In this document: in pieces, positions 17,134 through 59,195 of the stretch
Layout of the letters: every line of letters starts with the position of its first letter
How positions within the stretch are numbered: position 1 is the stretch's first letter
Assembly (NCBI RefSeq): GCF_048403405.1
Contig: NZ_CP183129.1
Strand: one strand, 5' to 3'
DNA from: Escherichia coli
GTDB taxonomy: Bacteria; Pseudomonadota; Gammaproteobacteria; Enterobacterales; Enterobacteriaceae
DNA: 64,000 nucleotides
Notes under the pieces: model-generated
Databases searched by the model: none
Seen by the model: the letters and a program-made list of their open reading frames with translations, nothing else
What the model was told of the DNA's origin: nothing
Made by a program: the position numbers and the translations under genes

Positions 17134-17149
17134 ATCTCTGGAGAACACA

Positions 17150-17539: not shown

Positions 17540-17564
17540 CGCGCATTTATAAAGGGAACATACT

Positions 17565-18788
17565 ATGCGTAAAAAAGAAGAGAATCTGAATACGGCATCA
17601 GGATTGCGTATTGCCATGATTTTGCTGGGTATTGCCGTCACACCTGTGCTGTTGTCATCCTCAAGCCTCGGCAATCAACTTTCCAGCGGCAGTTTAATTA
17701 GCGTCGTATTGTTAGGCGGCGTCATTCTGACCTTACTTTCAGCCATCACCATTAGCGTGGGAGAAAAAGCCCGCCTGCCAACGTATGGCATTGTGAAATA
17801 TTCGTTTGGCGAAAAAGGGGCCATCGCCATTAACATTTTGATGGCGATAAGTCTGTTCGGCTGGATTGCCGTTACCGCCAATATGTTTGGTCATTCGGTA
17901 CATGACTTACTGGCTCAACATGGACTGGAAGTTCCACTGGCACTGTTAGTGGCGGCTGGCTGTGTCATTTTTGTCGCCTCTACGGCATTTGGCTTTGCCG
18001 TTCTGGGAAAAATTGCCCAGGTTGCCGTGCCGGTTATCGCGCTGGTGCTGTGTTACATCCTCTATGTGGCAACCCATACCGAAGTGGCAGTACCAGCGGC
18101 GATTGTGGAGATGAATACAGGTGTCGCCGTTTCCACCGTTGTTGGCACCATTATTGTGCTGGTTGCCACACTGCCTGATTTCGGTAGTTTTGTGCATAAC
18201 CGCAAACATGCACTGATTGCCGCAGGCGTGACGTTTCTGGTTGCCTACCCTCTGCTCTACTGGGCGGGTGCAACGCCGAGCGCCATTAGTGGTCAGGGAT
18301 CTTTACTGGGTGCGATGGCGGTATTCGGTGCGGTTCTGCCTGCGGCGCTGTTGTTGATTTTCGCCTGCGTCACCGGTAACGCGGGCAATATGTTCCAGGG
18401 CACGCTGGTGGTTTCCACACTGCTTACCCGCTTTCCCAAATGGCAGATTACCGTGGCGCTGGGTATCCTTTCCGCCATCGTAGGCAGTATGGATATTATG
18501 GCGTGGTTTATTCCGTTTCTGCTGTTCCTGGGTATCGCCACGCCACCCGTTGCCGGAATTTATATCGCTGACTTTTTCCTTTATCGCCGTAATGGCTATC
18601 AAGAGTCAGTGTTAGCCCAGGAGTCACAGATTAAAGTGCTGACATTCGCAGCATGGATCATAGGCGCAGCGGTTGGCTTTATGACCGTAAAAGGCTTATT
18701 CACCCTGACGACGATCCCTTCGGTAGACTCGATTCTGGTGGCATGTATCGCGTATGCGATTCTCAGTCGGGCAAGTCAACACCGCTAA
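17565..18788 (+). CDS. NCS1-family nucleobase/hydantoin-type permease (CodB-like)
   Basis: 407-aa polytopic membrane protein (about 12 hydrophobic segments) with length and organisation like the cytosine permease CodB. Confidence 0.75.
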   Translation: MRKKEENLNTASGLRIAMILLGIAVTPVLLSSSSLGNQLSSGSLISVVLLGGVILTLLSAITISVGEKARLPTYGIVKYSFGEKGAIAINILMAISLFGWIAVTANMFGHSVHDLLAQHGLEVPLALLVAAGCVIFVASTAFGFAVLGKIAQVAVPVIALVLCYILYVATHTEVAVPAAIVEMNTGVAVSTVVGTIIVLVATLPDFGSFVHNRKHALIAAGVTFLVAYPLLYWAGATPSAISGQGSLLGAMAVFGAVLPAALLLIFACVTGNAGNMFQGTLVVSTLLTRFPKWQITVALGILSAIVGSMDIMAWFIPFLLFLGIATPPVAGIYIADFFLYRRNGYQESVLAQESQIKVLTFAAWIIGAAVGFMTVKGLFTLTTIPSVDSILVACIAYAILSRASQHR

Positions 18789-18865
18789 TTCCTGGGTATA
18801 CTCAGGCAATGATTACGGCTGAATCTGGAGAGATTCAGCCACTTTACCACTGACCAGGGAGCCTT

Positions 18866-19771
18866 ATGTTCATCTCAGACGAAACGCTTCGTGTTATTCA
18901 TCTGGTCGCCAGACACCAGAGCATTACCATCGCAGCCGAGCAGTTAAATAAAGTCCCTTCCGCCATCAGTTACACCATCAAGAAAGCGGAAGAGAGCCTG
19001 GGCGTTGAACTGTTCATTCGTAAGGGACGCTATATTGAATTATCGCCAGCGGGAAGTTACTTCATCGAACATAGCAAAACTATTCTTGGCGACCTGGAAG
19101 CATTAAAGCGCAACACAGTGCTGATTCACGATGGTATTGAGCGTGAACTGACAATTGCGGTAAACAATATTATTCCTGGTAATTTGCTGGTGGCATTTAT
19201 TCGAGATTTTGAACGGCAATTCACATCAACAACACTGACGGTAGATCTTGAGGTATACAACGGCTGCTGGGATGCGCTGTACAGTAAGCGTGCTGATCTG
19301 GTCTACGGTGCTCCTCATGCAGTACCAAGTAGTGAAGGCATCATTAGCGAACCGGTCGGACAAATGGAATGGGATTTTGTCGTCAGCCCACTCCACCCAC
19401 TGGCAGCGAAGCGGCATCCATTAGAAAACAGTGAATTGCGTCATTATCCAGCGGTTTGTATCCGCGATACCTCCGTTAACTTCCCCCCGATGCAAGCCTG
19501 GTTGTTGGAAGGACAAAAACCCATTTTTGTTCCTGACTTCGCTACGGCAATCGCCTTAATAGAACAAAACGTCGGTATTGGTTATATTCCACATCATCTG
19601 GCATTGCCGTTATTGAACAGCGGTAAATTGCTTAAAAAGCCAATGCGCGAACATAAACACGCCACCAAGTTATTTCTTGCCGCTCGTTCCGATGGTATGG
19701 GCAAAGCCTGTCAGTGGTGCATAGAATATTTAAGAAACCCGCAATTAATGACACGATTTGTATTTAATTGA
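18866..19771 (+). CDS. LysR-family transcriptional regulator
   Basis: 301-aa ORF with N-terminal HTH (ITIAAEQLNKVPSAISYTIKKAEESLGVELFIRKGR) and C-terminal LysR substrate-binding domain. Confidence 0.85.
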   Translation: MFISDETLRVIHLVARHQSITIAAEQLNKVPSAISYTIKKAEESLGVELFIRKGRYIELSPAGSYFIEHSKTILGDLEALKRNTVLIHDGIERELTIAVNNIIPGNLLVAFIRDFERQFTSTTLTVDLEVYNGCWDALYSKRADLVYGAPHAVPSSEGIISEPVGQMEWDFVVSPLHPLAAKRHPLENSELRHYPAVCIRDTSVNFPPMQAWLLEGQKPIFVPDFATAIALIEQNVGIGYIPHHLALPLLNSGKLLKKPMREHKHATKLFLAARSDGMGKACQWCIEYLRNPQLMTRFVFN

Positions 19772-19899
19772 CAATACAATGATAAAAATATAAGTCTTGC
19801 TTTAATTAGAGCGCCCGTTTAAATTATTTTTGTGCAGTTGACGTAACTCATGAAAATTAACCGGTCTGTTAATCATTACGTTCACTGCACACCTTCATT

Positions 19900-19940
19900 T
19901 TTTCACACCTATCCACGCCTGAAAACTATGTTATAATCAG
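19900..19940 (+). promoter_or_regulatory. Putative sigma70 promoter with extended -10 (TGTTATAAT) for the RpiR-family gene
   Basis: TGTTATAAT at about 19929-19937 in an AT-rich intergenic region, about 30 nt upstream of the ATG at 19971. No convincing -35. Confidence 0.3.
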
Positions 19941-19970
19941 CACTTTCTGTCAGAATGAAATTTACTAATT

Positions 19971-20816
19971 ATGAATAACATAACCGTAAAAAGTCTGATT
20001 CAAAGCAATTACCCTACACTGCATCAGGCGGAAAAAAAGGTCGCCGACTATATTCTTAGCCACGCACATGAAGTCGTGAACTATAGTGTCACTGAACTAT
20101 CAGAAAAAAGCCATGCCAGTGAAGCGACTATCGTGCGCACCTGTAAGAAATTAGGTTATCAGGGTTATTACCATTTAAAAATTGCATTAGCAAAAGAAGT
20201 CATTAATCCTGACAATAGCTATCCTGATAATACCGATTTTACCGATATAACGTCGCTGGCCACATTTTTATTAAAAAAACAGGCCGAAGATTTAATACAA
20301 TCAACGCAATTTTTTAATGCCGAAGTGCTTGAGTCCATTCTCAAACTACTTGCTAATTGCGATACTATTTTCTTTTTTGCTGCCGGAAATTCAAACCCTC
20401 TGGCCGTTTATGGTGCTTATAAATTCAGCCAACTCGGATTAAAAACCGTTGTTCACGTCAGCCCGGAAATGCAAATTAATGCGGCATATTCTATGGGGAA
20501 ACGCGACCTGGCGATTGGTATTTCTAACTCTGGCAGCACCAACTTAATGGTCGATATCTTTAAAGTGGTGAAAGAGCGCGGTGCCAAATCCGTTTGTATC
20601 ACTAACTATATTAAATCTCCGTTATCAAAACTCTCCACCCATCAACTCAATACCGCGGTCAGCGATAAAATCTTCTTTGAAGCCTTCGACTCCACTCGCG
20701 TTCCGGCAATGGGCGTTATTGATATGCTGGTGCTGTTGTTTATGTATAAAAACAAGGCGCATTACGAGAAATACCGCACCCGTGAAGAGTTTCTCGGCTC
20801 CCGTTTCAAGGGGTAA
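19971..20816 (+). CDS. RpiR/MurR-family transcriptional regulator (HTH + SIS domain)
   Basis: 281-aa ORF with N-terminal HTH_6-type region (SVTELSEKSHASEATIVRTCKKLGYQGYYHLK) and C-terminal SIS domain. Confidence 0.85.
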   Translation: MNNITVKSLIQSNYPTLHQAEKKVADYILSHAHEVVNYSVTELSEKSHASEATIVRTCKKLGYQGYYHLKIALAKEVINPDNSYPDNTDFTDITSLATFLLKKQAEDLIQSTQFFNAEVLESILKLLANCDTIFFFAAGNSNPLAVYGAYKFSQLGLKTVVHVSPEMQINAAYSMGKRDLAIGISNSGSTNLMVDIFKVVKERGAKSVCITNYIKSPLSKLSTHQLNTAVSDKIFFEAFDSTRVPAMGVIDMLVLLFMYKNKAHYEKYRTREEFLGSRFKG

Positions 20817-20840
20817 AAGGTCATCCTTTCACCCCTTGTG
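20810..20840. terminator. Hairpin between the convergent RpiR-family and transketolase genes (possible bidirectional terminator)
   Basis: GGGGTAAAAGG-TCAT-CCTTTCACCCC inverted repeat overlapping the rpiR-like stop codon, followed by TTGTG; 30-bp gap between convergent stops. Confidence 0.4.
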
Positions 20841-20845
20841 CAGGT

Positions 20846-22843
20846 TTAGCTATTCAGTAGCTCACGCGCCTGCGCCAGGACATTTTCCGGCGTAAAACCA
20901 AAGTGTTTGAACAACACATTCGCCGGAGCAGACTCACCAAAGCTCGTCATCCCAATGACTTTACCATCCAGACCGACGTAGCGTTCCCAGAATCCGGCGA
21001 TGCTGGCTTCTACCGCCAGACGTTTGCGTACAGCTTTTGGCAATACCGATTCTTTGTACGCCGCATCCTGATTATCGAAACGCTCGGTACACGGCATGGA
21101 AACTACGCGAACTTTACGCCCTTCTTCCGTTAACGCTTTTGCGGCGCTGACCACTAACTCAATCTCTGAACCCGCAGAAATGAGGATCATCTCAGGCTGA
21201 CCGTCACAATCACTCAGTACATAACCACCACGCGCAATCTCTGCCAACTGTGCAGCGGTGCGCGGCTGTTGCGCCAGCGGTTGGCGCGTTAATACCAACG
21301 ACGTTGGGCCATCTTTGCGCTCAATCGCCTGTTGCCAGGCCACCGCCACTTCCACCTGATCGCAACCGCGCCAGGTTTCCATATTCGGCGTCAGACGCAG
21401 CGACGCCAGTTGCTCAACGGGCTGATGTGTCGGGCCGTCTTCGCCCAGGCCGATGGTATCGTGGGTATAAACAAACACCGAGCGGATCTTCATCAGCGCC
21501 GCCATGCGCAGTGCATTACGCGCATATTCCATAAACATCAGGAAAGTACCGCCGTAAGGGATAAACCCACCATGCAGCGCAAGACCGTTCATGATGGCCG
21601 ACATACCAAATTCACGCACGCCATAGGAGATGTAATTCCCCGCCGGATTTTCCCCGGTGAAATCAACCGATTTCTGATGGCGAGTCAGGTTAGAGGGCGA
21701 CAAGTCCGCCGAGCCGCCCATCAGTTCCGGCAGCATATCAGCGAAGTGATTGAGGCATTTCTGGCTGACCTGACGGGTTGCCAGCGCCGCCGGATGGGAT
21801 TGCAGATCGTGCACATATTTCTGCATATTCTCGGCCCAGCCAGCAGGCAAATCACCCTTCATGCGACGAGTAAACTCCGCCGCCAGTTCCGGCCACTGCT
21901 TCGCGTAGTCAGCAAACAGTGCATCCCATTCCTGTTGAACCTGCGCGCCTTTCTCGGTCGCATCCCATTCGGCATAAATTTCACCAGGAATTTCGAAAGG
22001 GGCATACGGCCATTGCAGACGTTCACGCACCAGCGCCACTTCATCTGCACCCAGCGCCGAGCCGTGGCAATCGTGGCTGTTGGCTTTATTTGGTGAACCA
22101 AAACCGATAATCGTTTTGCAGCACAGCAGACTGGGCTTATCCGTGACGCTTTTCGCTTCACGCACCGCAGCATCTACCGCTTCTGGATCGTGACCATCAA
22201 CGCCTTCAATGACATGCCAGCCGTAGGCACGAAAACGGGCAGCCGTATCTTCAGCGAACCAGCCTTCTACGTGACCATCGATCGAAATACCGTTATCGTC
22301 CCAGATAGCAATCAGATTGCCGAGCTTCAGCGTTCCTGCAAGACCACAGGCCTCGTGGGAGATCCCTTCCATCAGGCAGCCATCACCCAAAAATAGCCAT
22401 GTGTGATGATCAACAATATTAAAGCCCGGTTTGTTAAATTCTGCCGCCAGCGCCTTCTCCGCAATCGCCATCCCCACCGCATTAGCTACGCCCTGCCCCA
22501 ACGGGCCGGTGGTGGTTTCAACACCCGGCGTATAACCATATTCTGGATGACCCGGCGTGCGGGAGTGGAGCTGACGAAAGTCGCGAATATCATCCATCGA
22601 CAGGTCGTAGCCTGTAAGATGCAGCAAAGCGTAAATCAACATGGAGCCGTGACCGTTCGACTGAACATAGCGGTCGCGGTTAAACCACTGCGGATTTTTT
22701 GGGTTATGACGCAGGTGACGACGCCAGACCACTTCGGCAATATCCGCCATCCCCATCGGCGCGCCCGGATGACCGGAGTTCGCTTTCTGGATCGCATCAA
22801 CACTTAACATTCGGATGGCATTAGCCAGTAATTGTGAATTCAT
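20846..22843 (-). CDS. tkt: Transketolase paralog (third tkt copy; possibly the ExPEC-associated 'tkt1')
   Basis: 665-aa ORF collinear with E. coli TktA/TktB over its whole length ([81 protein letters not shown]) but clearly divergent from both, and located in an accessory island. Confidence 0.9.
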
Positions 22844-22893
22844 ACTTCAGCTCTCTCTGTCTGGCGGGCTGAAACCAGCCCGCTAATCTCGAA

Positions 22894-24402
22894 TTAGTTA
22901 GCACAGGCCACTGTCATTTCTGTCGGGCGCGGTCTGCTCATTACGGTTTTAATTTCGTCGCGCAGGATTTGCGATTTGCCGCCAAATATCACCTGTACAC
23001 CGCCATCACCCAGTTTCACTAACCCCGCAGCCCCCAACTCCTTCAGCCGTTTTTCATTCACTTTCTTATCGTCTACCAGCGCCAGCCTCAGGCGTGTTGC
23101 GCAGGCATCCACATCTTCGATATTGTCGAAACCACCTACTGCTTCGATGATTTGGTATGGACGTTCTTCGCGCGTTAATGTGGTTGCAACGGCAATCTCT
23201 TCATCCTCACGTCCCGGTGTTTTCAGATTCAACTTGCGGATCAGTACCCGAAATACGGTGTAGTAAATCGCTGCATAGCCCGCGCCTGCCAGGAACACCA
23301 GATACCACGGCGTGCGGTTTGGCATAACGCCATTCAGTACGAAATCAATAAGACCGCCAGCAAAAGGATGACCAATGTGCACATTCAGGATGTTCATCAG
23401 CACAAATGAAGTGGCATATAAGAAGATGTGAATGATGTAGAGAACCGGAGCTGCAAACAAAAATGCATATTCCAGCGGCTCCGTAATCCCGGTAACAAAT
23501 GTGGTCAGCGCACCGGAGAGTAAAAGGCCTTTAATCAGCGCCTTACGTTCCGGTTTTGCTTCCTGATACATCGCCAACGCGGCGGCAGGTAACGCAAACA
23601 TCATGATCGGGAAACGACCTGTCATAAACAGCCCCGCCGTCAACGGAACACCGTCGCGCAATTGGGCAAAGAACACCGGAATATCGCCCGTCACCAGTTG
23701 CCCGGATTTGGTCATGTAGTCGCCAAAGTTGTAATAAAACGGCACGTTCCAGATATGATGCAGGCCAAAAGGAATCAGCGAACGTTCGCCAACGGCGTAA
23801 ATAAAGGCCGCGAAGTTCGCGTTATGCCCACTGGTCACCAGCGTTGAAAGCGACGCCAGACCTTTTTGTACCGGTATCCACAGCCACGGCAATAAATAGC
23901 CGACAATAATTGCCGCCACCGCCGTAATAATCGGTACAAAGCGTTTTCCACCGAAGAAACCAAGAAACTGAGGCAATTCAATATTGTGGAAGCGGGTATA
24001 GAGCAGATAAACAAAGATGGCGACAATCAAACCGCCAAACACTCCCGTTTGTAACGTCGGTACCCCGAGGATCATCGCATAGTCACCGTTACTGGCTGCA
24101 ACGGACTCCGCGGTAATGCCAAGTTGCGTTCCCATCGTGGCATTCATGATCATGTAACTGATAATCGCTGAAAGTGATGAAGAACCATCACCTGTCAGGC
24201 CAATCACAATACCGACACAAAACAGCAAAGGAAGGTTGGCGAAAATCAGGCCGCCGCAATTCGCCAGCAGCTCAATGTTAAATGAAATCCCGATGGCTAA
24301 AATCAAACCCGCCGCCGGAAGAATGGCGATTGGTAACATCAGAGCAGAAGAAAATTTCTGCAACTTCTTGAAGTTAAACAAGGATGTTATTTTTTTGCTC
24401 AT
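22894..24402 (-). CDS. PTS glucose-family EIICB component (EIIC domain followed by EIIB domain)
   Basis: 502-aa ORF: polytopic EIIC region, then a C-terminal EIIB domain with the phosphocysteine motif DACATRLRL. No EIIA domain. Confidence 0.85.
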   Translation of the reverse strand: MSKKITSLFNFKKLQKFSSALMLPIAILPAAGLILAIGISFNIELLANCGGLIFANLPLLFCVGIVIGLTGDGSSSLSAIISYMIMNATMGTQLGITAESVAASNGDYAMILGVPTLQTGVFGGLIVAIFVYLLYTRFHNIELPQFLGFFGGKRFVPIITAVAAIIVGYLLPWLWIPVQKGLASLSTLVTSGHNANFAAFIYAVGERSLIPFGLHHIWNVPFYYNFGDYMTKSGQLVTGDIPVFFAQLRDGVPLTAGLFMTGRFPIMMFALPAAALAMYQEAKPERKALIKGLLLSGALTTFVTGITEPLEYAFLFAAPVLYIIHIFLYATSFVLMNILNVHIGHPFAGGLIDFVLNGVMPNRTPWYLVFLAGAGYAAIYYTVFRVLIRKLNLKTPGREDEEIAVATTLTREERPYQIIEAVGGFDNIEDVDACATRLRLALVDDKKVNEKRLKELGAAGLVKLGDGGVQVIFGGKSQILRDEIKTVMSRPRPTEMTVACAN

Positions 24403-24443
24403 TTTTATTCTCCTGTAGGGTATCGAGCAAATAACGGCGACGA

Positions 24444-25001
24444 CTATTCCAGATTGGCGTGGCGCTTAAACAGTTCACTTTCCGGCGCACCACTTTCAGC
24501 AGCCATCTTCATCACTAATGCATCGGCAATCACCAGCAAAGCTTGCTCATACAACGACGCCATCGGCTGTGCCGAGCGGAAAACAGAATCTTTTTGATTT
24601 TTGGAAGGGGCATTGATTTGCACGATGACGTCGACAAACTCGGTGATAGTGGCGTGTCGATTCGTGGTTAACACCGCCACAGCGCCGCCAAGCTGACGTG
24701 CTTTTTTCGCCAGTGCCACCAGTTGTGCTGTCTCACCGGAAGCGGAAGAAACGATAAACAGATCGCCAGGCCCAAAGTTCGGCGTAATGGTTTCCGTCAG
24801 AAAGTAAACCTCTTTTCCCATATGCATCAGGCGCATGGTGAAGGCTTTCATGGAAAAGCCGGCGCGTCCCAGGCCATAGCAGAAAACGCGCTGGCTTTGC
24901 TGAATAGCGTCGATCAATTTGGTGCAGTCATCCTCACGGATAGAGTCCTTAACGAAGGTTAATTCATTGATGATCTCAGTGATGTACAGCTTTGCGTCCA
25001 T
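24444..25001 (-). CDS. SIS-domain sugar-phosphate isomerase resembling 6-phospho-3-hexuloisomerase (PHI/HxlB-like)
   Basis: ORF open to 25013; start placed at the second Met (MDAKLYITEII), which has a GAGGTG SD about 6 nt upstream. About 185 aa with FTMRLMHMG, SASGET and C-terminal HANLE, as in PHI/HxlB as I recall it. Confidence 0.7.
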   Translation of the reverse strand: MDAKLYITEIINELTFVKDSIREDDCTKLIDAIQQSQRVFCYGLGRAGFSMKAFTMRLMHMGKEVYFLTETITPNFGPGDLFIVSSASGETAQLVALAKKARQLGGAVAVLTTNRHATITEFVDVIVQINAPSKNQKDSVFRSAQPMASLYEQALLVIADALVMKMAAESGAPESELFKRHANLE

Positions 25002-25307
25002 TTCACACCTCATGAAATAATTTTCTCAAACACAAAATCTCATGAAATTTTATTTCATTCCAATGCATCAGTATGAAATGTGAAGCTAGTCACAAGAAAG
25101 ATCATAGGTTGATATGTTTTTCATTAAAAAACATATAGATATCAAGTAATTTTTAATATGTGATGGAGAGGCAGATAGAAAAAATGGCGGAAATGACGAA
25201 ATTTATTTCATGAGAAGGGAATAAAGAAGATTTTCTTAAACAGGGTATGAACTGATATCTGGAATGGTTTACGCAGTATGCTGGGAAGACGTCGCTGTAA
25301 TGAGAAA

Positions 25308-25338
25308 AGACCGGGTGGTATTACCACCCGGTTTGGAT
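25308..25338 (-). terminator. Rho-independent terminator downstream of metE
   Basis: ACCGGGTGG-TATT-ACCACCCGGT palindrome just 3' of the metE stop, flanked by T-rich tracts in both orientations. Confidence 0.5.
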
Positions 25339-31475: not shown

Positions 31476-32096
31476 ATGACCTTAGAATGGTGGTTTGCCT
31501 ACCTGCTGACATCGATCATTTTAAGCCTGTCGCCAGGCTCTGGCGCAATCAACACCATGACCACCTCGCTCAACCACGGTTATCGCGGCGCGGTGGCGTC
31601 TATTGCTGGGCTTCAGACCGGACTGGCGATTCATATTGTGCTGGTTGGCGTGGGTTTGGGGACGCTATTTTCCCGCTCAGTGATTGCGTTTGAAGTGTTG
31701 AAGTGGGCAGGCGCAGCTTACTTGATTTGGCTGGGAATACAGCAATGGCGCGCCGCTGGTGCAATTGACCTTAAATCGCTAGCCTCTACTCAATCGCGCC
31801 GACATTTGTTCCAGCGCGCAGTGTTTGTGAATCTTACCAATCCCAAAAGTATTGTGTTTCTGGCAGCGCTATTTCCGCAATTCATCATGCCGCAACAGCC
31901 GCAGCTGATGCAGTATATCGTGCTCGGCGTCACCACTATTGTGGTCGATATTATTGTGATGATCGGTTACGCCACCCTTGCTCAACGGATTGCTCTATGG
32001 ATTAAAGGACCAAAGCAGATGAAGGCGCTGAATAAGATTTTCGGCTCGTTGTTTATGCTGGTGGGAGCGCTGTTAGCATCGGCGAGGCATGCGTGA
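31476..32096 (+). CDS. rhtB: Homoserine/homoserine-lactone exporter RhtB (LysE family)
   Basis: 206-aa LysE/RhtB-family membrane protein, divergent from pldB. Confidence 0.9.
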
Positions 32097-32104
32097 AAAA
32101 TAAT

Positions 32105-32134
32105 GTCGGATGCGGCGTAAACGCCTTATCCGAC
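32105..32134. repeat. REP (repetitive extragenic palindrome) element between rhtB and rhtC
   Basis: GTCGGATGCGGCGTAAACGCCTTATCCGAC, the typical enterobacterial REP consensus, between convergent genes. Confidence 0.5.
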
Positions 32135-32157
32135 TTACTCTGATGACGCGTCTGGCA

Positions 32158-32778
32158 TCAACGCGAAATAATCAAATGAATGCCAAATCCGGCAAATAAC
32201 GCCCCGGCAAAACCATCAATCCACTTCGCCAGACGTTGATAACCACGGCGCATTTGCGGCAGGGCAAACAGGCTGGCAACGACGGTAAACCATGCCAGCG
32301 TTTCGACAATAATCAGCGCGAAAATGCCCCAGCGCTCGGTGGTGCCGACGTTATCGCCGACAAACAATGAGAATACCGAACCAAAATAGATAATCGCTTT
32401 CGGATTGGCGAGATTGGTCAGTAAGCCCTTAAGAAAACTACGCCCGCTTTTCGCCAGTTCGACTTGTGGCGCAGGGGCAGAAACAACCTCTTTTTTCAGT
32501 GCACCACGTAGCATCTGGTAACCCATCCAGCAGAGATACAGGCCACCGCCCACCATAATCAGTGTATGCAGCCAGGCCATTTTTTCGATAATCAAATGCA
32601 GGCCAAGCAACGCAATCCCAGCCCAAACCATTACGCCGCAGGTAATGCCCAGCACGCCCATCATCGCTTCTTTACGGGAACGACTGACAGCGGTCTGAGA
32701 GACAAAAAAGAAATCGGGACCGGGGCTCATAAGCGCCACAATGTGCACCATGGCGACGGTGAGGAATAACATCAACAT
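32158..32778 (-). CDS. rhtC: Threonine exporter RhtC (LysE family)
   Basis: 206-aa LysE/RhtB-family paralog convergent with rhtB. Confidence 0.9.
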   Translation of the reverse strand: MLMLFLTVAMVHIVALMSPGPDFFFVSQTAVSRSRKEAMMGVLGITCGVMVWAGIALLGLHLIIEKMAWLHTLIMVGGGLYLCWMGYQMLRGALKKEVVSAPAPQVELAKSGRSFLKGLLTNLANPKAIIYFGSVFSLFVGDNVGTTERWGIFALIIVETLAWFTVVASLFALPQMRRGYQRLAKWIDGFAGALFAGFGIHLIISR

Positions 32779-37247: not shown

Positions 37248-37557
37248 AAAATAAATATATTCTGAAAAAATATGCCGACTCTTGCATGAGAGTGGGCATA
37301 TTGCCATGCTGACAGGAGACTCACATAAGGAAAGGCAGAATTTCCAGACGTCGTTGTATATTTTCATTTGCTTTAATAAATTTCATTTTTAGTAAATTCA
37401 GCATTATGTTATTAGCGATGAGCAAGACCAATCATTAACCAAGTTCTCTTCAGAATGTAATGAAAAATGTGAAGTGCATTTCTTTTTTAAAATTTTTTTA
37501 GCCTATTATTTCTTATCAAATTAACATTGCCCTTAATTATAAGAAAGGAGAATATAA

Positions 37558-38406
37558 ATGAACAACATATTAGGCTCATCAATTAATATGCCCTGTACAC
37601 TTTTCGAAACTATTACTTTATTCGATGATTTTTCTGCTGATGATATGCAATATGGGGATATGGAAGAACAAGATTTTCTCTCACTCGGCTTAAGCGACAT
37701 CTCTGCAAAAGTTGATCCTTACCGCCTCATTAAATACCATTTTCCTGGGCCGAATTCTACTTATGGTGCTTTTAGTGTTCCAACTTCTGGAACAAAAATA
37801 TCACAAAGTGAATGTATTGATATTTTATTTGCAGAAATGAAAGATCTGGCAAAAATGTTTTCCTTTTTTGGACAATACAAAACACTCATCCAGGATCTGA
37901 TTGATCATTTTAGATATGGAAATGGCAACAGTTTCCATAGCCAGGAATTGAACTTATCTTTTCATGAACGAATAAAAAAATATGATTATAATAGCCCAAT
38001 ACGTGTAATCAAAGAATGTATCGAAAATGATATTTCTTCAACACCTACGATAGGATACCGGCCTCTTCTCCTACAAAAGATTAAGATCGAATTACTTTCA
38101 TCAAGACTAAATAAATTCAATGATTTTAAAGATAATTTTAATGGCCTGGGAATCAGCATTCATGATATCTCAGCTCAAAAAATATCTCTTTTAAGTTTTC
38201 AAAAATACGCTATAGGATGGAGTGCAACAATTCATTTTGTAGCACAGGACCACTTCGGTCTTGATGTAACTGATATCAAAAACAAGACTTACAGCAAATA
38301 TAGATTTTTTCGCATATGGTTCTTTTTACAACGGCATAAAGACTTTGCTTTCAAACCTTTTTTCACCAATTTTAACACTATCGAAAGAATCGAAAATTAT
38401 CTATGA
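37558..38406 (+). CDS. Hypothetical cytoplasmic protein, 282 aa, in a low-GC two-gene module (possibly DUF3289-like; unverified)
   Basis: Clean ORF with AAGGAGA SD (37545-37551), acidic N-terminus, no signal peptide. Strongly AT-rich codon usage unlike the flanking rarD/corA. Confidence 0.6.
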   Translation: MNNILGSSINMPCTLFETITLFDDFSADDMQYGDMEEQDFLSLGLSDISAKVDPYRLIKYHFPGPNSTYGAFSVPTSGTKISQSECIDILFAEMKDLAKMFSFFGQYKTLIQDLIDHFRYGNGNSFHSQELNLSFHERIKKYDYNSPIRVIKECIENDISSTPTIGYRPLLLQKIKIELLSSRLNKFNDFKDNFNGLGISIHDISAQKISLLSFQKYAIGWSATIHFVAQDHFGLDVTDIKNKTYSKYRFFRIWFFLQRHKDFAFKPFFTNFNTIERIENYL

Positions 38407-38894
38407 AAAACAAACTCCAGAAAATTATATTATGTTTATTTCTTCTATGCTGCATCTATAATTTATGGACATTGCGTCCTGTACAGATTTTGTATACATA
38501 CTCTGATGCTGGCAATTCAGTCTTTCTGGTCGTTGATCATCTGCCATGGACTGACAGCGATAAAATAAATTGGTATCTGAAGCATCAGAATGAAATTAAA
38601 AATCAACATCCCCTACCAGAAGGTAGTTGGCATACCTGGTATGTCATTGATATCGGTAATGGCTTCACTGACTATAAAAAATATATCGAAGGGCCGTATG
38701 AAGATCTCTACTGTTTCCCGACAATTAAGAGCAATGATAATTGCATCGTGAAAAATTACTTAATGGTTATTAATGAATACCCTTATCGTAACACTCATAT
38801 TGGTATTAACGATTTTACTGAGTATCAATTAACACAAGAAAATAAAATAGAGCGAGTTTTCAATCCGCATGACTTTAAAAAAGACAATTTTTAG
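38403..38894 (+). CDS. Hypothetical membrane-anchored protein, 163 aa, translationally coupled to the upstream gene (possibly DUF943-like; unverified)
   Basis: Start overlaps the upstream stop (ATGA at 38403-38406). N-terminal hydrophobic segment IILCLFLLCCIYNLW, then a soluble domain. Same AT-rich composition. Confidence 0.6.
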   Translation: MKNKLQKIILCLFLLCCIYNLWTLRPVQILYTYSDAGNSVFLVVDHLPWTDSDKINWYLKHQNEIKNQHPLPEGSWHTWYVIDIGNGFTDYKKYIEGPYEDLYCFPTIKSNDNCIVKNYLMVINEYPYRNTHIGINDFTEYQLTQENKIERVFNPHDFKKDNF

Positions 38895-38935
38895 AAATAA
38901 GCCGGATAAAAAAATAGCTTTATCCGGCACTCATA

Positions 38936-41020: not shown

Positions 41021-41102
41021 GCATTGTACACTCGAGGAGGCCAGACAAACTGGGACTGGCTACACAGTTGGAAAATCATCAGATAAATGAAGGGAAACAA
41101 AA

Positions 41103-42005
41103 ATGAAAAAAACGCTCGCAACGTTATTTTTATTAACGTGTCTGGGATCATCATCCGCCTATGCAGATAACGCTTTGATTTTACAAACTGATTTTAGCCT
41201 GAAAGATGGTGCCGTCTCGGCGATGAAAGGGGTCGCATTCGGCGTTGACCATAATCTTAAAATCTTTGATTTAACACACGAAATTCCACCGTATAACATC
41301 TGGGAAGGCGCTTATCGCCTGTATCAGACTGCCAGTTACTGGCCGCAAGGTTCGGTGTTTGTTAGCGTGGTCGATCCGGGCGTAGGCACTGACCGTAAAT
41401 CGGTGGTGCTAAAAACCAAAAACGGTCAGTACTTCGTTTCACCAGATAACGGTACGCTCACTTTGGTGGCACAAACTCTGGGTATTGATAGCGTCCGGGA
41501 AATCGACGAAAAAGCTAACCGCCTGAAAGGTTCTGAAAAGTCATATACCTTCCACGGTCGTGACGTGTATGCCTACACCGGTGCGCGTCTGGCTTCCGGG
41601 GCGATTACGTTCGAACAGGTGGGGCCAGAGCTTCCTGCAAAAGTTGTCGAACTTTCTTATCAGAAAGCAAAAGCAACAAAAGGTGAAGTGAAGGGCAATA
41701 TCCCGATTCTCGATATTCAGTACGGCAACGTCTGGAGCAATATCAGCGACGAGTTGCTGAATCAGGCAGGAATCAAACTCAACGACACGTTGTGTGTGAC
41801 CATTTCCGAAGGTTCCCAGCAAAAATACGCAGGGAAAATGCCGTATGTCGCAAGCTTCGGCGATGTGCCGGAAGGCCAGCCGATGGTGTATCTGAACAGC
41901 TTATTGAATGTTTCCGTGGCGCTGAATATGGATAATTTTGCGCAGAAACATCAGGTTGCGTCTGGTGCTGACTGGAATATTGATGTGAAGAAGTGCGCTA
42001 AGTAA
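41103..42005 (+). CDS. DUF62-family protein (SAM hydroxide adenosyltransferase / fluorinase-chlorinase-like fold) with predicted signal peptide
   Basis: 300-aa ORF. N-terminus MKKTLATLFLLTCLGSSSAYA looks like a cleavable Sec signal; the mature part begins DNALILQTDFSLKDGAVSAMKGV, resembling the conserved N-terminal motif of SAM-hydrolase DUF62 proteins as I recall it. Confidence 0.65.
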   Translation: MKKTLATLFLLTCLGSSSAYADNALILQTDFSLKDGAVSAMKGVAFGVDHNLKIFDLTHEIPPYNIWEGAYRLYQTASYWPQGSVFVSVVDPGVGTDRKSVVLKTKNGQYFVSPDNGTLTLVAQTLGIDSVREIDEKANRLKGSEKSYTFHGRDVYAYTGARLASGAITFEQVGPELPAKVVELSYQKAKATKGEVKGNIPILDIQYGNVWSNISDELLNQAGIKLNDTLCVTISEGSQQKYAGKMPYVASFGDVPEGQPMVYLNSLLNVSVALNMDNFAQKHQVASGADWNIDVKKCAK

Positions 42006-42013
42006 GGTGCTGA

Positions 42014-42044
42014 TGCGGAATGCGGTGTGGCGCACCGCATTCCG
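42014..42044. terminator. Perfect 13-bp inverted repeat between the convergent DUF62 gene and uvrD (possible bidirectional terminator or REP-like element)
   Basis: GCGGAATGCGGTG-TGGCG-CACCGCATTCCGC; no clear T-tract. Confidence 0.4.
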
Positions 42045-42049
42045 CAACG

Positions 42050-44212
42050 TCACACCGTCTCCAACCGGGCGTAAGCCGCCACCAGCCATTTAATACCCTG
42101 GCCCTGGAACGCCACCTGCAAACGGCTATGCTCACCGCTGCCTTCCATATTGACGATGGTGCCTTCACCAAACTTAGCGTGGCGTACGCGCTGGCCGAGC
42201 TTGTAGCCGCTGTCGTTCTCGACCATCGGCGTACCCATCCGTTGATGGCTGACCGGGCGGCTTACCGTGGCGCGCAGGCGCACCTCTTCCACACACTCTT
42301 CCGGCAGCTCGCCGATAAAGCGCGATGGGCGATGGTAAACCTCTTTGCCATACAGACGGCGGGTTTCCGCGTAGGTCAGCGTCAGTTTCTGCATCGCGCG
42401 GGTTACGCCAACGTAGGCCAGACGGCGTTCTTCTTCCAGACGTCCGCCTTCATCCAGCGACATCTGGCTTGGGAACATGCCCTCTTCCATACCGACGATA
42501 AACACCTGCGGGAACTCCAGCCCTTTCGCCGAGTGTAGCGTCATCAACTGCACCGCATCCTGCCAGGTATCCGCCTGCCCCTCGCCCGCTTCCAGTGCCG
42601 CATGGGAGAGGAACGCCTGCAGCGGCATTAAATCTTCGTCTTCTTCGTTGTAGCTGAACTGGCGCGTCGCCGTTACCAGTTCCTCTAAGTTTTCGATACG
42701 CGTCTGGCCTTTTTCGCCTTTCTCCTGCTCGTACATGGTGCGCAGGCCGGAGTCTTTAATTACCCGGTCAGTCTGTACATGCAGCGGCATATCGGCAGTT
42801 TCCTGCGCTAAGGCGTCGATCAGTTCCATAAACCGCTGTAAGGCACTGGCAGCACGTCCGGCGAGGGCTTTTTCCTGCAACAGTTCACGACATGCCTGCC
42901 AGAGTGTTAACTGGCGATCGCGCGATGTCTGACGTACCACGTCCAGCGTCCGGTCACCAATACCCCGCGTTGGTGTATTCACCACGCGCTCAAAGGCCGC
43001 GTCGTCATTACGGTTGGCAATCAGGCGCAGATACGAGAGCGCATCTTTGATTTCCTGGCGTTCGAAGAATCGCATCCCGCCGTAAATACGGTACGGCATA
43101 CTTGCCTGTAACAGTGCTTCTTCCAGCACACGCGACTGGGCGTTGCTGCGGTAGAGAATGGCGCACTCGGCAAGCGCCCCGCCGTTGTCCTGCCAGGTTT
43201 TGATACGGTTAACCACAAAACGCGCTTCATCGAGTTCGTTAAAAGCGCAATAGAGGGAAATAGGCTCACCATCCGCGCCATCGGTCCACAGTTTTTTACC
43301 CAAACGCCCGTTGTTGTTTTCAATCAGGGCGTTCGCGGCGCTCAGAATATTGCTGGTAGAGCGGTAGTTCTGCTCCAGACGGATAGTTTCAGCACCGGGG
43401 AAATCATTGAGGAAACGCTGAATATTCTCCACCTGCGCTCCACGCCAGCCGTAGATTGACTGATCGTCATCGCCAACGATCATCACTTTGCCGGTATCGC
43501 CCGCCAGCAGGCGGATCCACGCATACTGAATGTTGTTGGTATCCTGGAATTCGTCCACCAGGATATTGGTAAACCGTTCGCGATAGTGCTGAAGGATATG
43601 CGGCTTGTTAAGCCACAACTCGTGAGCACGTAGCAGCAGCTCGGCGAAGTCCACCAGGCCCGCGCGGTCACACGCTTCCTGATACGCCTGATACACCTTC
43701 TGCCAGGTCTGCTCCACCGGATTACCGTAGCTTTGAATATGATGTGGACGCAGGCCTTCATCTTTCTGGCTGTTGATGTACCACATTGCCTGGCGCGGCG
43801 GCCACTGCTTCTCGTCGAGGTTCATCGCCTTGATTAGGCGTTTGAGCAGGCGTAGCTGGTCCTCGCTGTCGAGGATCTGAAAATCCTGCGGCAGATTGGC
43901 GTCCATATGGTGCGCACGCAGCAGACGGTGCGCCAGCCCGTGGAAGGTGCCGACCCACATGCCGCCCTGGCTGGTGCCCATCAGCTGCCCGATACGATGA
44001 CGCATCTCCGCCGCCGCTTTGTTGGTAAACGTTACCGCCATAATCGAATATGGCGAGCAGTTTTCCACGCTCATCAGCCAGGCGATACGGTGCACCAGTA
44101 CGCGCGTCTTACCACTGCCCGCGCCCGCCAGCACCAGAAGGTTGCTGCGTGGCGCGGCCACCGCTTCGCGCTGTTTGTCATTAAGGCTGTCGAGCAGGTA
44201 AGAAACGTCCAT
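42050..44212 (-). CDS. uvrD: DNA helicase II UvrD
   Basis: ORF open to 44401 (783 aa); canonical 720-aa UvrD starts at MDVSYLLDSLNDKQREAVAAP (ATG at 44210-44212). Walker A motif GAGSGKT. Confidence 0.95.
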   Translation of the reverse strand: MDVSYLLDSLNDKQREAVAAPRSNLLVLAGAGSGKTRVLVHRIAWLMSVENCSPYSIMAVTFTNKAAAEMRHRIGQLMGTSQGGMWVGTFHGLAHRLLRAHHMDANLPQDFQILDSEDQLRLLKRLIKAMNLDEKQWPPRQAMWYINSQKDEGLRPHHIQSYGNPVEQTWQKVYQAYQEACDRAGLVDFAELLLRAHELWLNKPHILQHYRERFTNILVDEFQDTNNIQYAWIRLLAGDTGKVMIVGDDDQSIYGWRGAQVENIQRFLNDFPGAETIRLEQNYRSTSNILSAANALIENNNGRLGKKLWTDGADGEPISLYCAFNELDEARFVVNRIKTWQDNGGALAECAILYRSNAQSRVLEEALLQASMPYRIYGGMRFFERQEIKDALSYLRLIANRNDDAAFERVVNTPTRGIGDRTLDVVRQTSRDRQLTLWQACRELLQEKALAGRAASALQRFMELIDALAQETADMPLHVQTDRVIKDSGLRTMYEQEKGEKGQTRIENLEELVTATRQFSYNEEDEDLMPLQAFLSHAALEAGEGQADTWQDAVQLMTLHSAKGLEFPQVFIVGMEEGMFPSQMSLDEGGRLEEERRLAYVGVTRAMQKLTLTYAETRRLYGKEVYHRPSRFIGELPEECVEEVRLRATVSRPVSHQRMGTPMVENDSGYKLGQRVRHAKFGEGTIVNMEGSGEHSRLQVAFQGQGIKWLVAAYARLETV

Positions 44213-48459: not shown

Positions 48460-48498
48460 GATTGCATGCCGGATAAGCCTCGCTTTCCGGCACGCTCA

Positions 48499-57858: not shown

Positions 57859-57894
57859 GCCGGCGCTATCGCTACATCGGGCCACACTGACCTT

Positions 57895-57924
57895 GCCGGA
57901 TGCGACGTGAACGCCTTATCCGGC
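57895..57924. repeat. REP element between aslA and aslB
   Basis: GCCGGATGCGACGTGAACGCCTTATCCGGC, the typical REP consensus. Confidence 0.5.
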
Positions 57925-57936
57925 AATTAACCGCAG

Positions 57937-57962
57937 GCGGCCACAAAATGGCCGCTTTTTTA
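57937..57962. terminator. Bidirectional rho-independent terminator between convergent aslA and aslB
   Basis: GCGGCC-ACAAAAT-GGCCGC hairpin flanked by an A-tract upstream and TTTTTT downstream. Confidence 0.55.
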
Positions 57963-59195
57963 CTTATTCACCACCATCAAATGCGCCTGCATAATGTCGC
58001 TGGCCGGACGACCGTGCGCCAGCAAATCAGCCATTGCTTTAAGATATGGCGGTAGATGGCGGAAATAACGCTGATACCCGGCACACAAATAATTCAGCCC
58101 GGGTTTGCCGCTGGCATCGAGCATAAAGCGGTGTTTCGGACAGCCTCCCCAGCACGCTTTTAACACGTTGCAACTGCGACACTGCGCCGGTAACTGCTTA
58201 AATTTATCTTCACCAAACACCTGCTGTTGCGGGGAATCTACCATTTCTGCAATTGTTTGCTGGTGCATATTCCCCAGTCGATATTGCGGATAAACATAGT
58301 GATCGCAGGCGTAAACGTCGCCGTTGTGTTCAACAATCACCGAGCGCCCACAGGTTGGCTGATGATGGCAAACCGCACCTGGCGCACCAACAAAATTGGC
58401 AAACGCCCATTCGATATTCATCACGAAAATCTTGCCGACGTCGCGTTTGATCCAGTGGTCGAATATCGCCACCAAAAATTCACCGAACTCATCGGGGCGT
58501 ACCGACCATTCCGTCAGTTCGCCCTGAATATCGCCGGGAGCATGTAGCTTAAGTCCAGCATGAGCAGCCGTTTCATCAGCCAGGCGCTCGACCACCGGAA
58601 TAAACTGGATGAACTCAGCGCCTGCATCACACAGAAAATCATAGACTTGCAAAGGTTGTAACGCACTGGTGCGATTAACGCAGACCAGCACGTTATAGTC
58701 GACATGATGTTTTTGCAGGAGCGTCAGGGCACGCATCACCAGCTTATGCGTTGGTCTGCCGCCTTTGGTCACGCGATATTGATTGTGGATCTCAGCCGGA
58801 CCATCCAGCGATAACCCTACAAGAAAATGATTTTCTGCCAGAAATGCACACCATTCGTCATCAAGCAGAACGCCGTTAGTCTGGAAGCTGTTACTTATCT
58901 TCCTGCCAGCACCATATTTCGCCTGTAGCGCCACGGCACGGCGGTAAAAATCCAGCCCGAGTAACGTTGGTTCGCCGCCCTGCCAGGTAAAAGCCACTTC
59001 GTTTTGGGTTTCGCTGGCAGCGATATAGTGACGGACATACGCTTCCAGCGTGTCATCGTCCATATGCGTGACTGGCTTTTCGCGGTAAAGGGATTGTTTT
59101 TCGAGATAAAAACAGTAGTCACAGTTCAGATTACAATCGGAACCGCTCGGTTTCGCCATCACATGAAAAGCACGCGTTGGAACCTGTTGCAGCAT
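57960..59195 (-). CDS. aslB: Anaerobic sulfatase-maturating enzyme homolog AslB (radical SAM)
   Basis: ORF open to 59225; canonical start MLQQVPTRAFHVMAKPSGSDCNLNCDYCFY with the radical-SAM CxxxCxxC motif and additional C-terminal Cys clusters. Confidence 0.9.
   Translation of the reverse strand: MLQQVPTRAFHVMAKPSGSDCNLNCDYCFYLEKQSLYREKPVTHMDDDTLEAYVRHYIAASETQNEVAFTWQGGEPTLLGLDFYRRAVALQAKYGAGRKISNSFQTNGVLLDDEWCAFLAENHFLVGLSLDGPAEIHNQYRVTKGGRPTHKLVMRALTLLQKHHVDYNVLVCVNRTSALQPLQVYDFLCDAGAEFIQFIPVVERLADETAAHAGLKLHAPGDIQGELTEWSVRPDEFGEFLVAIFDHWIKRDVGKIFVMNIEWAFANFVGAPGAVCHHQPTCGRSVIVEHNGDVYACDHYVYPQYRLGNMHQQTIAEMVDSPQQQVFGEDKFKQLPAQCRSCNVLKACWGGCPKHRFMLDASGKPGLNYLCAGYQRYFRHLPPYLKAMADLLAHGRPASDIMQAHLMVVNK

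What the first reader, a model, noticed from the sequence alone, without database searches (positions are those of the whole stretch)
32105..32134. REP elements at convergent gene junctions
Typical REP palindromes occur at 32105-32134 (rhtB/rhtC) and 57895-57924 (aslA/aslB), and a related palindrome sits at about 48462-48497 (cyaY/cyaA). They are ordinary features of the enterobacterial backbone but mark core intergenic regions, in contrast to the REP-free accessory segments.
Basis: partly seen in the sequence, partly recalled or inferred. Interest (0 to 1): 0.15.

Follow-up and report, generated by a model that had tools for sequence, protein, structure and literature searches.

The report
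Two ordinary REP hairpins, one look-alike
Two of the three flagged palindromes are ordinary copies of the well-known E. coli REP repeat sitting between converging genes, the third is a one-off terminator hairpin that only resembles a REP, and none of this is new.

Summary
The window is E. coli chromosome, reversed relative to K-12 (about 4,026,677 to 3,978,152). Two sites are genuine y-type REP palindromic units at the stated coordinates. A covariance model built from 54 independent K-12 REPs scores 32104-32138 (-) at 48.9 bits (E~1e-12) and 57894-57924 (-) at 39.0 bits (E~1e-9). The first is the orthologue of K-12 REP289, a mapped bidirectional terminator between rhtC and rhtB. The second is a solo REP without the 5' GTAG. 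It looks like a two-REP BIME collapsed by deletion between 7-bp repeats; K-12 still has a BIME there.

The third site (48464-48495, cyaY/cyaA) is a real, stable hairpin but not a REP. It scores 8.8 bits (E~2.4), has no GTAG, no AA/GC bulge and no upper stem, is single-copy, and carries no REP name in the published K-12 table, where it is listed as a bidirectional terminator.

The contrast between REP-bearing core and REP-free accessory segments is not statistically supported (P~0.55). The REP junctions are themselves variable sites: other strains carry genes or rearranged BIMEs there, and in this window an accessory gene occupies the place of K-12 REP288.

Verdict: already known, low interest.

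The parts
32104..32138 (-). y-type REP palindromic unit, orthologue of K-12 REP289, between rhtB (stop 32094-32096) and rhtC (stop 32158-32160). Read on the - strand: GTAA-GTCGGATAAGGCGTTTACGCCGCATCCGAC-A. The lower stem carries a compensatory C-G to T-A change, and GTAG is mutated to GTAA.
   Evidence: Consensus hit; CM 48.9 bits, E 1.2e-12, full length 1-35; identical in K-12; named REP289 and listed as a bidirectional terminator in Harris et al. suppl. Table 16; RNA hairpin -22.9 (+) and -28.1 (-) kcal/mol.
57894..57924 (-). Solo y-type REP core between aslA (stop 57856-57858) and aslB (stop 57960-57962). AATT stands where GTAG should be. It looks like a collapsed derivative of an inverted BIME.
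   Evidence: Consensus hit with 1 mismatch; CM 39.0 bits, E 1.4e-9, model positions 5-35 only; allele comparison A2; the same allele in 603/5426 genomes.
57935..57963 (+). Canonical intrinsic terminator (9-bp G+C stem, T-run) for aslA, immediately downstream of the REP. It overlaps the aslB stop codon and is partly deleted in K-12.
   Evidence: Terminator scan; fold; alignment A2 shows it in 4 of 5 strains and a 9-nt gap in K-12.
48464..48495 (.). cyaY/cyaA hairpin (GCCGGA-T-AAGC loop CTC GCTT-TCCGGC, extended by GCAT/ACGC). It fills a 39-bp spacer, 4 nt from the cyaY stop and 3 nt from the cyaA stop. It is a bidirectional terminator-type hairpin, not a REP.
   Evidence: Inverted repeat; folds; CM 8.8 bits, E 2.4; single-copy in E. 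coli genomes; K-12 orthologue 3993701-3993736 listed as a bidirectional terminator with no REP name.
38897..38929 (+). Hairpin GCCGGATAAA-N8-TTTATCCGGC between a DUF943 gene and corA, inside the segment that replaces K-12 yigF/yigG. It has the REP lower stem only and is a borderline REP-like hit.
   Evidence: CM 17.3 bits, E 0.006, upper stem deleted; sequence; fold -15.5 kcal/mol; K-12 has a different terminator hairpin here (row 317).
42014..42046 (.). Perfect 15-bp palindrome between the accessory SAM-hydrolase-family gene (41103-42005) and uvrD (stop 42050-42052). It occupies the position of the second unit of K-12 BIME REP288, and its right arm resembles that unit. Possibly a diverged, collapsed BIME.
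   Evidence: Sequences; fold -31 kcal/mol; not detected by the CM at E<10; K-12 REP288 units score 51.4 and 22.5 bits.
25310..25332 (.). metE/ysgA terminator hairpin ACCGGGTGGT-ATT-ACCACCCGGT. Its K-12 orthologue overlaps the annotated 'REP290', although it is not a canonical y/z REP. It sits at the right edge of the 13.9-kb island.
   Evidence: Sequence; Harris et al. Table 16 row 319; no CM hit.

Best explanation
Sites 1 and 2 are y-type REP palindromic units of the E. coli REP/BIME family. Both are in the orientation whose GTAG-bearing strand is the window's minus strand. When transcribed from either converging gene, each folds into the characteristic bulged stem-loop in the 3'UTR. Most likely that stem-loop acts as a two-way transcription stop and 3'-exonuclease block. 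At rhtB/rhtC the REP hairpin is followed on the rhtC strand by AUUAUUUUU, so it resembles an intrinsic terminator. At aslA/aslB the REP sits just upstream of a separate canonical terminator. At the DNA level both are relics of elements spread by the REP-associated transposase TnpA_REP, and both are probably immobile now. Site 1 has GTAA instead of GTAG. Site 2 lost GTAG when a two-REP BIME collapsed by deletion between ATCCGGC repeats. Site 3 is not a REP. It is a locus-specific hairpin serving as the shared terminator of cyaY and cyaA, and may be an old REP remnant. Shown: identity, structure, orthology, population polymorphism. Taken from the literature for the K-12 orthologues: overlapping transcript 3' ends at sites 1 and 3. 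Inferred: function in this strain, immobility, and the deletion pathway.
For: The consensus search finds only these two sites, with 0 in shuffles. The CM built from independent K-12 REPs gives 48.9 and 39.0 bits, strand-specific, and held-out K-12 REPs score 49-61 bits. The family hairpin shows covariation: 97.3% of cells are paired and 5 of 11 pairs carry compensatory changes, including the C-G to U-A change seen in site 1. The AA/GC bulge is present in both sites. The site 1 query finds a median of 4 places per genome, the extra ones matching only the REP part, so it is a dispersed repeat. [quoted passage not shown] About 60% of E. coli REPs lie between convergent genes, 30% of convergent junctions hold one, and REP325 was shown to be both terminator and mRNA stabiliser. 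GTAG and the bulge are required for TnpA_REP activity (PMC8266576). Alignment A2 shows the window allele equals the E400634-type BIME minus the stretch between two ATCCGGC repeats.
Against: No transcript data exist for this strain. Harris et al. report that REP effects are context-dependent and that terminal REPs do not lengthen mRNA half-lives genome-wide (section titles). The aslA/aslB REP is not in the bidirectional-terminator table, and aslA has its own terminator, so that REP may add little. Neither site carries an intact GTAG, a feature PMC8266576 treats as characteristic, so they are imperfect members. CM E-values are rough because of the short calibration. The name 'REP287' for aslA/aslB could not be verified, because the local NC_000913.3 copy carries no REP features.
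Confidence: 0.8

Rival explanations
1. The REPs are selfish or neutral relics with no present function. They are leftovers of TnpA_REP-mobilised REPIN/BIME elements that persist in tolerant spots between converging genes, and the hairpins do nothing the cell needs.
For: Both copies are defective for the GTAG needed by the transposase. All three junctions are freely rearranged, collapsed or replaced in other strains without loss of the flanking genes. aslA has an independent terminator. [quoted passage not shown]
Against: The REP allele at rhtB/rhtC is kept in about 88% of 5,426 genomes with its stem preserved by a compensatory change. The K-12 orthologue coincides with mapped convergent transcript 3' ends in log and stationary phase. 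When a REP is lost, another strong hairpin takes its place (L013; window 42014-46, 38901-28), which suggests the hairpin function is needed.
Confidence: 0.25
2. The rhtB-proximal REP acts mainly on translation. A stable REP hairpin starting 8 nt after the rhtB stop codon stalls the terminating ribosome and triggers tmRNA-mediated rescue, lowering RhtB output. This is the mechanism reported for REPs within about 15 nt of a stop codon (Liang, Rudd and Deutscher 2015, cited from my own knowledge; the paper could not be retrieved).
For: The distance from the stop codon TGA 32094-32096 to the hairpin base at 32104/32105 is 7-8 nt. The hairpin is stable at -22.9 kcal/mol, z -4.3.
Against: It does not apply to site 2, which is 36 nt from the aslA stop and 35 nt from the aslB stop. 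It is compatible with the best explanation rather than exclusive of it.
Confidence: 0.2
3. The REPs act at the DNA level, as binding sites for gyrase, IHF, HU or Pol I that organise the nucleoid or supercoiling domains.
For: This is the classical proposal for BIMEs (own knowledge). The K-12 BIMEs at aslA/aslB and yigE/uvrD have a linker with an IHF-like motif...AATTTATTGAAT....
Against: Both window copies are solo REPs without any linker, so the IHF-site-bearing part is absent. Harris et al. 2026 found no REP-REP long-range contacts and no nucleoid effect for REP325.
Confidence: 0.07
4. Site 3 (cyaY/cyaA) is a true but degenerate REP, a collapsed remnant that kept only the lower stem, so the first reader's word 'related' is correct by descent.
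For: It shares GCCGGATAAG (10 of 10) and TCCGGCA (7 of 7) with the y-type unit. GCCGGA...TCCGGC hairpins are about 50-fold over chance in 320 kb of K-12 (37 against about 0.75), and a third of them are short non-canonical forms. A live example of a BIME collapsing to its outer arms exists at aslA/aslB in strain A1.S1.126.
Against: CM score of 8.8 bits, E 2.4. It has no GTAG (GCAT instead), and AA pairs with TT so there is no bulge. It is single-copy, carries no REP name in the K-12 table, and is the same in K-12 and in at least 4,629 genomes with no BIME-bearing allele seen.
Confidence: 0.25

Closest known systems
E. coli REP palindromic units, y type (REP/BIME family; Gilson, Bachellier and Hofnung; Ton-Hoang 2012; Corneloup 2021, PMC8266576)
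   Same: The roughly 30-nt imperfect palindrome GCCGGATAAGGCG-TTYA-CGYCGCATCCGGC, with the lower stem, AA/GC bulge, 4-bp upper stem and 4-nt loop, extragenic and dispersed in many copies.
   Different: Neither copy has an intact 5' GTAG: GTAA at site 1, AATT at site 2. Site 1 has the GTCGG/CCGAC lower-stem variant, also seen in the K-12 ppc/argE BIME.
K-12 REP289 (rhtC/rhtB, 4008395-4008435)
   Same: Site 1 is its positional orthologue with an identical REP sequence.
   Different: Nothing within the REP. The flanks differ by two substitutions.
BIMEs / REPINs (pairs of inverted REPs with a linker, mobilised by RAYT/TnpA_REP)
   Same: The aslA/aslB locus carries a y-linker-z2 BIME in K-12, O157 and E400634. 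The window REP is one arm of such an element.
   Different: The window has single units only, with no linker, no partner REP and no IHF-like motif, so it is not a BIME or REPIN in its present form.
Bidirectional intrinsic terminators between convergent genes (306 in E. coli; table reproduced in Harris et al. 2026, Table 16)
   Same: Site 1 and site 3 orthologues are both entries of that table. Each is a strong hairpin filling a short convergent spacer.
   Different: Site 3 lacks clear U/A tracts on either side. Site 2 is not in the table.

Membership tests
E. coli REP palindromic unit (y/z1/z2) | Imperfect palindrome with lower stem GCC(G/T)GAT...ATC(C/A)GGC and a 4-6 bp upper stem | tested here: met
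   Sites 1 and 2 have all 11 model pairs formed; site 1 has a compensatory T-A and site 2 one G-U. Site 3 has 6 of 7 lower-stem pairs and no homologous upper stem, so it does not meet this.
E. coli REP palindromic unit (y/z1/z2) | Conserved AA / GC mismatch bulge in the stem (PMC8266576) | tested here: met
   GATAAGG...CGCATCC is present in sites 1 and 2, and the folds show the internal loop. Site 3 does not meet this, because AA pairs with UU.
E. coli REP palindromic unit (y/z1/z2) | 5' GTAG tetranucleotide (needed for TnpA_REP binding and cleavage) | tested here: not met
   Site 1 has GTAA (3 of 4). Site 2 has AATT, and the CM aligns only positions 5-35. Site 3 has GCAT. In K-12, 50 of 58 harvested units have GTAG, and the annotated REP289 itself has GTAA. 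So the feature is typical of active substrates but not required for annotation as a REP.
E. coli REP palindromic unit (y/z1/z2) | Significant score against a family model built from independent members | tested here: met
   48.9 bits (E 1e-12) and 39.0 bits (E 1e-9) for sites 1 and 2. Site 3 scores 8.8 bits (E 2.4) and does not meet this. Held-out K-12 REPs score 49-61 bits.
E. coli REP palindromic unit (y/z1/z2) | Repetitive: many dispersed copies per genome | tested here: met
   The site 1 junction query gives a median of 4 and up to 12 places per genome, the extras matching only the REP. There are 58 units in 320 kb of K-12. The site 3 query gives a median of 1 place per genome and does not meet this.
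E. coli REP palindromic unit (y/z1/z2) | Extragenic location, mostly at the 3' ends of genes | tested here: met
   All three lie in convergent intergenic spacers.
E. coli REP palindromic unit (y/z1/z2) | Listed in the curated K-12 REP annotation | tested here: inconclusive
   Site 1 is REP289. The site 3 row has no REP name. The aslA/aslB name (presumably REP287) was not found in the stored part of the supplement, and the local NC_000913.3 copy has no REP features.
E. coli REP palindromic unit (y/z1/z2) | Strand-specific binding and cleavage by TnpA_REP | not testable with these tools
   This needs the in vitro assay of PMC8266576. The GTAG defects predict no activity.
BIME / REPIN | Two or more REPs in alternating orientation separated by a conserved linker | tested here: not met
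   The window has single units only. K-12, O157 and E400634 have the two-unit form at aslA/aslB.
Bidirectional intrinsic terminator | Overlapping 3' ends of convergent transcripts at a hairpin | not testable with these tools
   Reported for the K-12 orthologues of sites 1 and 3. No transcript data exist for this strain. The simple terminator scan calls only the separate aslA terminator at 57935-57957.

The most novel reading that the evidence does not exclude
REP/BIME junctions in this chromosomal stretch may be recurrent exchange points rather than passive markers of core DNA. In this reading, hairpin- or microhomology-mediated events at REPs (in-place BIME inversion, collapse to solo REPs or bare hairpins) go together with gain or loss of single accessory genes: the Rpn-family nuclease gene at rhtB/rhtC and the SAM-hydrolase-family gene at yigE/uvrD. 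REPs would then help create the accessory/core mosaic.
Probability: 0.15. Interest if true: 0.4.

Novelty: already known. Interest (0 to 1): 0.1.

Why it matters
It matters little. REPs are the commonest non-coding repeat of E. coli and have been described since the 1980s, and site 1 already has a name (REP289) and a mapped terminator role in K-12. The useful outputs are corrections. The cyaY/cyaA hairpin should not be counted as a REP. Two REPs in 64 kb cannot support a contrast between core and accessory DNA. REP junctions here are among the most variable intergenic spots of the species, so they are poor markers of stable backbone. The allele series at aslA/aslB is a clean natural example of how a BIME inverts and decays into a solo, GTAG-less REP.

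Tried and rejected
(1) A degenerate 33-nt pattern with a fixed 5-nt loop found nothing. This was my mis-specified spacing, not evidence against REPs.

(2) The K-12 RefSeq record as held locally shows no repeat_region/REP features, so the direct comparison with K-12 REP annotation had to go through the supplement of Harris et al. 2026.

(3) A literature search by gene names together with 'repetitive extragenic palindromic' gave only irrelevant papers.

(4) Liang, Rudd and Deutscher 2015 (REPs near stop codons and trans-translation) could not be retrieved. That mechanism is therefore cited from memory only.

(5) Rfam has no family matching these elements. It found only EsrE, GlmZ and four tRNAs.

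(6) The idea that the 42014-42046 palindrome is a recognisable REP was rejected, because it gives no CM hit at E<10. Only positional and arm-level resemblance to the second unit of REP288 remains.

(7) The simple terminator scan does not call the REPs or site 3, because the bulged stems and weak T-runs fall outside its rules.

Full report
**What the window is.** The region matches E. coli chromosomes at up to 100% identity. It is collinear with K-12 MG1655, reversed: window 1-64000 corresponds to about K-12 4,026,677-3,978,152. Three stretches are absent from K-12:
- 11317-25258, a 13.9-kb block between ysgA and metE;
- 37391-38935, which replaces yigF/yigG;
- 41021-42023, between yigE and uvrD.

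It also confirms that all three flagged sites lie between converging genes: rhtB+/rhtC-, cyaY+/cyaA-, aslA+/aslB-.

**Checking the observation.** A y-type REP consensus, written from memory, hits only 32105-32134 (3 mismatches) and 57895-57924 (1 mismatch) in the whole window. No hit occurs in 100 dinucleotide-preserving shuffles.

For a formal and independent test I harvested 58 REP units from 320 kb of K-12. I removed the four that are orthologous to the window, aligned the other 54 (A1), and built covariance model R1 with the published stem / AA-GC bulge / stem structure. That structure is well supported in the training set: 97.3% of cells are paired and 5 of 11 pairs show compensatory changes.

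With filters off, R1 gave the following:

| Window position | Strand | Score | E-value | Note |
|---|---|---|---|---|
| 32104-32138 | - | 48.9 bits | 1.2e-12 | full length |
| 57894-57924 | - | 39.0 bits | 1.4e-9 | model positions 5-35 only |
| 38897-38929 | + | 17.3 bits | 0.006 | lower stem only |
| 48464-48492 (cyaY/cyaA) | + | 8.8 bits | 2.4 | level with chance hits in coding sequence |

The held-out K-12 REPs at aslA/aslB, yigE/uvrD and rhtC/rhtB are recovered at 49-61 bits. The K-12 cyaY/cyaA hairpin again scores 8.8 bits. E-values from this short calibration are rough, but the gap between about 40-50 bits and about 9 bits is not.

**Site 1 (rhtB/rhtC).** On the minus strand it reads GTAA-GTCGGATAAGGCGTTTACGCCGCATCCGAC-A.
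- It has the AA/GC bulge, a 4-bp upper stem and a TTTA loop.
- Its lower stem carries a C-G to T-A compensatory change. The same variant occurs in the K-12 ppc/argE BIME.
- The tetranucleotide is GTAA rather than GTAG.
- The REP is identical in K-12.
- In supplementary Table 16 of Harris et al. 2026 (bioRxiv 10.64898/2026.03.23.713779) it is REP289. [quoted passage not shown]
- The hairpin starts 7-8 nt after the rhtB stop codon and 19 nt after the rhtC stop codon.
- As RNA it folds at -22.9 kcal/mol on the plus strand and -28.1 kcal/mol on the minus strand. On the rhtC strand it is followed by AUUAUUUUU.

**Site 2 (aslA/aslB).** The core GCCGGATAAGGCGTTCACGTCGCATCCGGCA is a good y unit, but AATT stands where GTAG should be. 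Comparison of strains explains this (A2).
- K-12 and O157 carry a two-unit BIME: z2 inverted, an IHF-like linker, then y.
- Strain E400634 has the window's left flank and the same BIME inverted in place.
- The window equals the E400634 form minus about 74 nt lying between two direct ATCCGGC repeats. The lost stretch holds CTAC/GTAG, the linker and most of the z2 unit.
- Strain A1.S1.126 shows an independent collapse of the K-12-type BIME down to its two outer arms.
- The window's allele is shared by 603 of 5,426 complete genomes.
- A separate canonical terminator (57935-57957 plus a T-run) follows the REP on the aslA strand. K-12 has a 9-nt deletion there.

**Site 3 (cyaY/cyaA).** The palindrome is real: arms 48464-48473 and 48486-48495, folding at -20/-24 kcal/mol with z about -5. 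It fills a 39-bp spacer. With a REP it shares only GCCGGATAAG and TCCGGCA. Several things count against REP identity:
- The preceding tetranucleotide is GCAT.
- AA pairs with UU, so there is no bulge.
- The upper stem is unrelated.
- It is single-copy in E. coli genomes, with a median of 1 place per genome. The site 1 query gives a median of 4, the extra places matching only the REP.
- In the Harris table its K-12 orthologue (3993701-3993736, cyaY:cyaA) is a bidirectional terminator with no REP name. Neighbouring rows carry REP288, REP289 and REP290.

Descent from a REP cannot be excluded. GCCGGA...TCCGGC hairpins are about 50-fold over chance in K-12 (37 observed against about 0.75), and a third of them are short non-canonical forms. 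The A1.S1.126 allele shows how such forms arise.

**The core-versus-accessory claim.** With two canonical REPs, finding both in the 47.5 kb of core is expected by chance: P=0.55 by length and 0.57 by intergenic length. The window is REP-poor overall, with 2 units against about 9.6 expected at the K-12 mean of 697 units per genome.

The REP loci are also where the variation is.
- K-12 REP288, a two-unit BIME between yigE and uvrD, is missing from the window. Its place is taken by a SAM-hydrolase/halogenase-family gene plus a perfect palindrome at 42014-42046. This gene allele occurs in 2,413 of 5,426 genomes.
- At rhtB/rhtC, about 650 genomes carry an Rpn-family recombination-promoting nuclease gene, flanked by other hairpins, instead of REP289.
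- The metE/ysgA terminator, which K-12 annotation calls REP290 although it is not a canonical unit, sits at the right edge of the 13.9-kb island.
- The borderline REP-like hairpin at 38897-38929 lies inside the segment that replaces yigF/yigG.

**Mechanism.** The best-supported reading is that the two REPs work as RNA hairpins in the 3'UTRs of both converging genes. They would stop read-through transcription in both directions and block 3'-exonucleases.

This rests on three things. The K-12 3'-end data cover the identical site 1. Harris et al. showed that REP325 is both a partially Rho-dependent terminator and an mRNA stabiliser. They also found that convergent pairs with a REP are expressed more highly.

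The function is inferred, not shown, for this strain, and it is weaker for site 2, which has its own terminator next door. A translation-level effect on rhtB, from a REP within about 15 nt of the stop codon, is possible but rests on my memory of Liang et al. 2015.

As DNA, both copies are probably immobile. GTAG and the bulge are needed for TnpA_REP activity and GTAG tolerates no mutation (PMC8266576).

**Comparison and verdict.** Sites 1 and 2 are members of the E. coli y-type REP family by sequence, structure, copy number, location and model score, with a defective GTAG. Neither is a BIME in this strain. Site 3 works like a bidirectional terminator and is not a REP. Everything here is already known in kind, and for site 1 in person. 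Interest is low (0.1). The only mildly interesting thread is that REP junctions may be recurrent exchange points for single accessory genes. BIME polymorphism and REP targeting by mobile elements are established themes (own knowledge: Bachellier et al. 1997; Tobes and Pareja 2006), so even that would be an extension, not a new kind of thing.

Noticed in passing
window 11317-25258 (repeats 11284-11304 and 25260-25280): A 13.9-kb block absent from K-12 is inserted in the 3' end of ysgA and flanked by a 21-nt direct repeat, TGGAATGGTTTAC(A/G)CAGTATG. It encodes cysteine hydrolase, DUF2877, FdrA, DUF1116, carbamate kinase, an allophanate-hydrolase-related protein, cytosine permease, LysR and RpiR regulators, transketolase, a PtsG-like IIBC and HxlB. 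No integrase is annotated.
   Followed up: partly
window 41021-42046; K-12 L003 149-253: K-12's two-unit BIME REP288 between yigE and uvrD is replaced here by a 300-aa SAM hydrolase/SAM-dependent halogenase family gene plus a perfect 15-bp palindrome. The gene allele is in 2,413 of 5,426 complete E. coli genomes.
   Followed up: partly
L013 2443-3498 (strain 1449), orthologous to window 32097-32157: In about 12% of complete E. coli genomes the rhtB/rhtC REP is absent. An 861-bp Rpn-family recombination-promoting nuclease / putative transposase gene sits there instead, flanked by unrelated hairpins.
   Followed up: partly
window 57859-57959; L002 9195-9352; L010, L011, L012: There are four structural alleles of the aslA/aslB spacer: the K-12/O157 BIME, the same BIME inverted in place (E400634), a solo REP from deletion between ATCCGGC repeats (this window), and a collapse to the outer arms (A1.S1.126). 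K-12 alone lacks 9 nt of the aslA terminator.
   Followed up: yes
window 37391-38935: K-12 yigF/yigG are replaced by a YPO3983-family gene and a DUF943 gene. The corA-side terminator is a different hairpin (38901-38928) from the K-12 one at 4002383-4002417.
   Followed up: no
K-12 loci L002-L009 (320 kb) and window 38901-38928, 48468-48491: Hairpins of the form GCCGGA...TCCGGC number 37 against about 0.75 in shuffles. Twelve are not canonical REPs, and most of those are short GCCGGAT..ATCCGGC stems. They may be collapsed REPs that now serve as plain terminators.
   Followed up: partly
window 25310-25332: The metE/ysgA terminator hairpin ACCGGGTGGT-ATT-ACCACCCGGT corresponds to what the K-12-based table calls REP290, yet it has no resemblance to y/z REPs and gives no model hit.
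   Followed up: no
window 6449-6700, 55572-55778, 59345-59777: Rfam finds the EsrE sRNA (overlapping the ubiJ 3' end), GlmZ, and the four-tRNA cluster argX-hisR-leuT-proM, as in K-12.
   Followed up: no
window 47862-48016: MS 69-1 annotation marks a frameshifted, truncated DKNYY-family pseudogene upstream of cyaY, where K-12 annotates yzcX.
   Followed up: no
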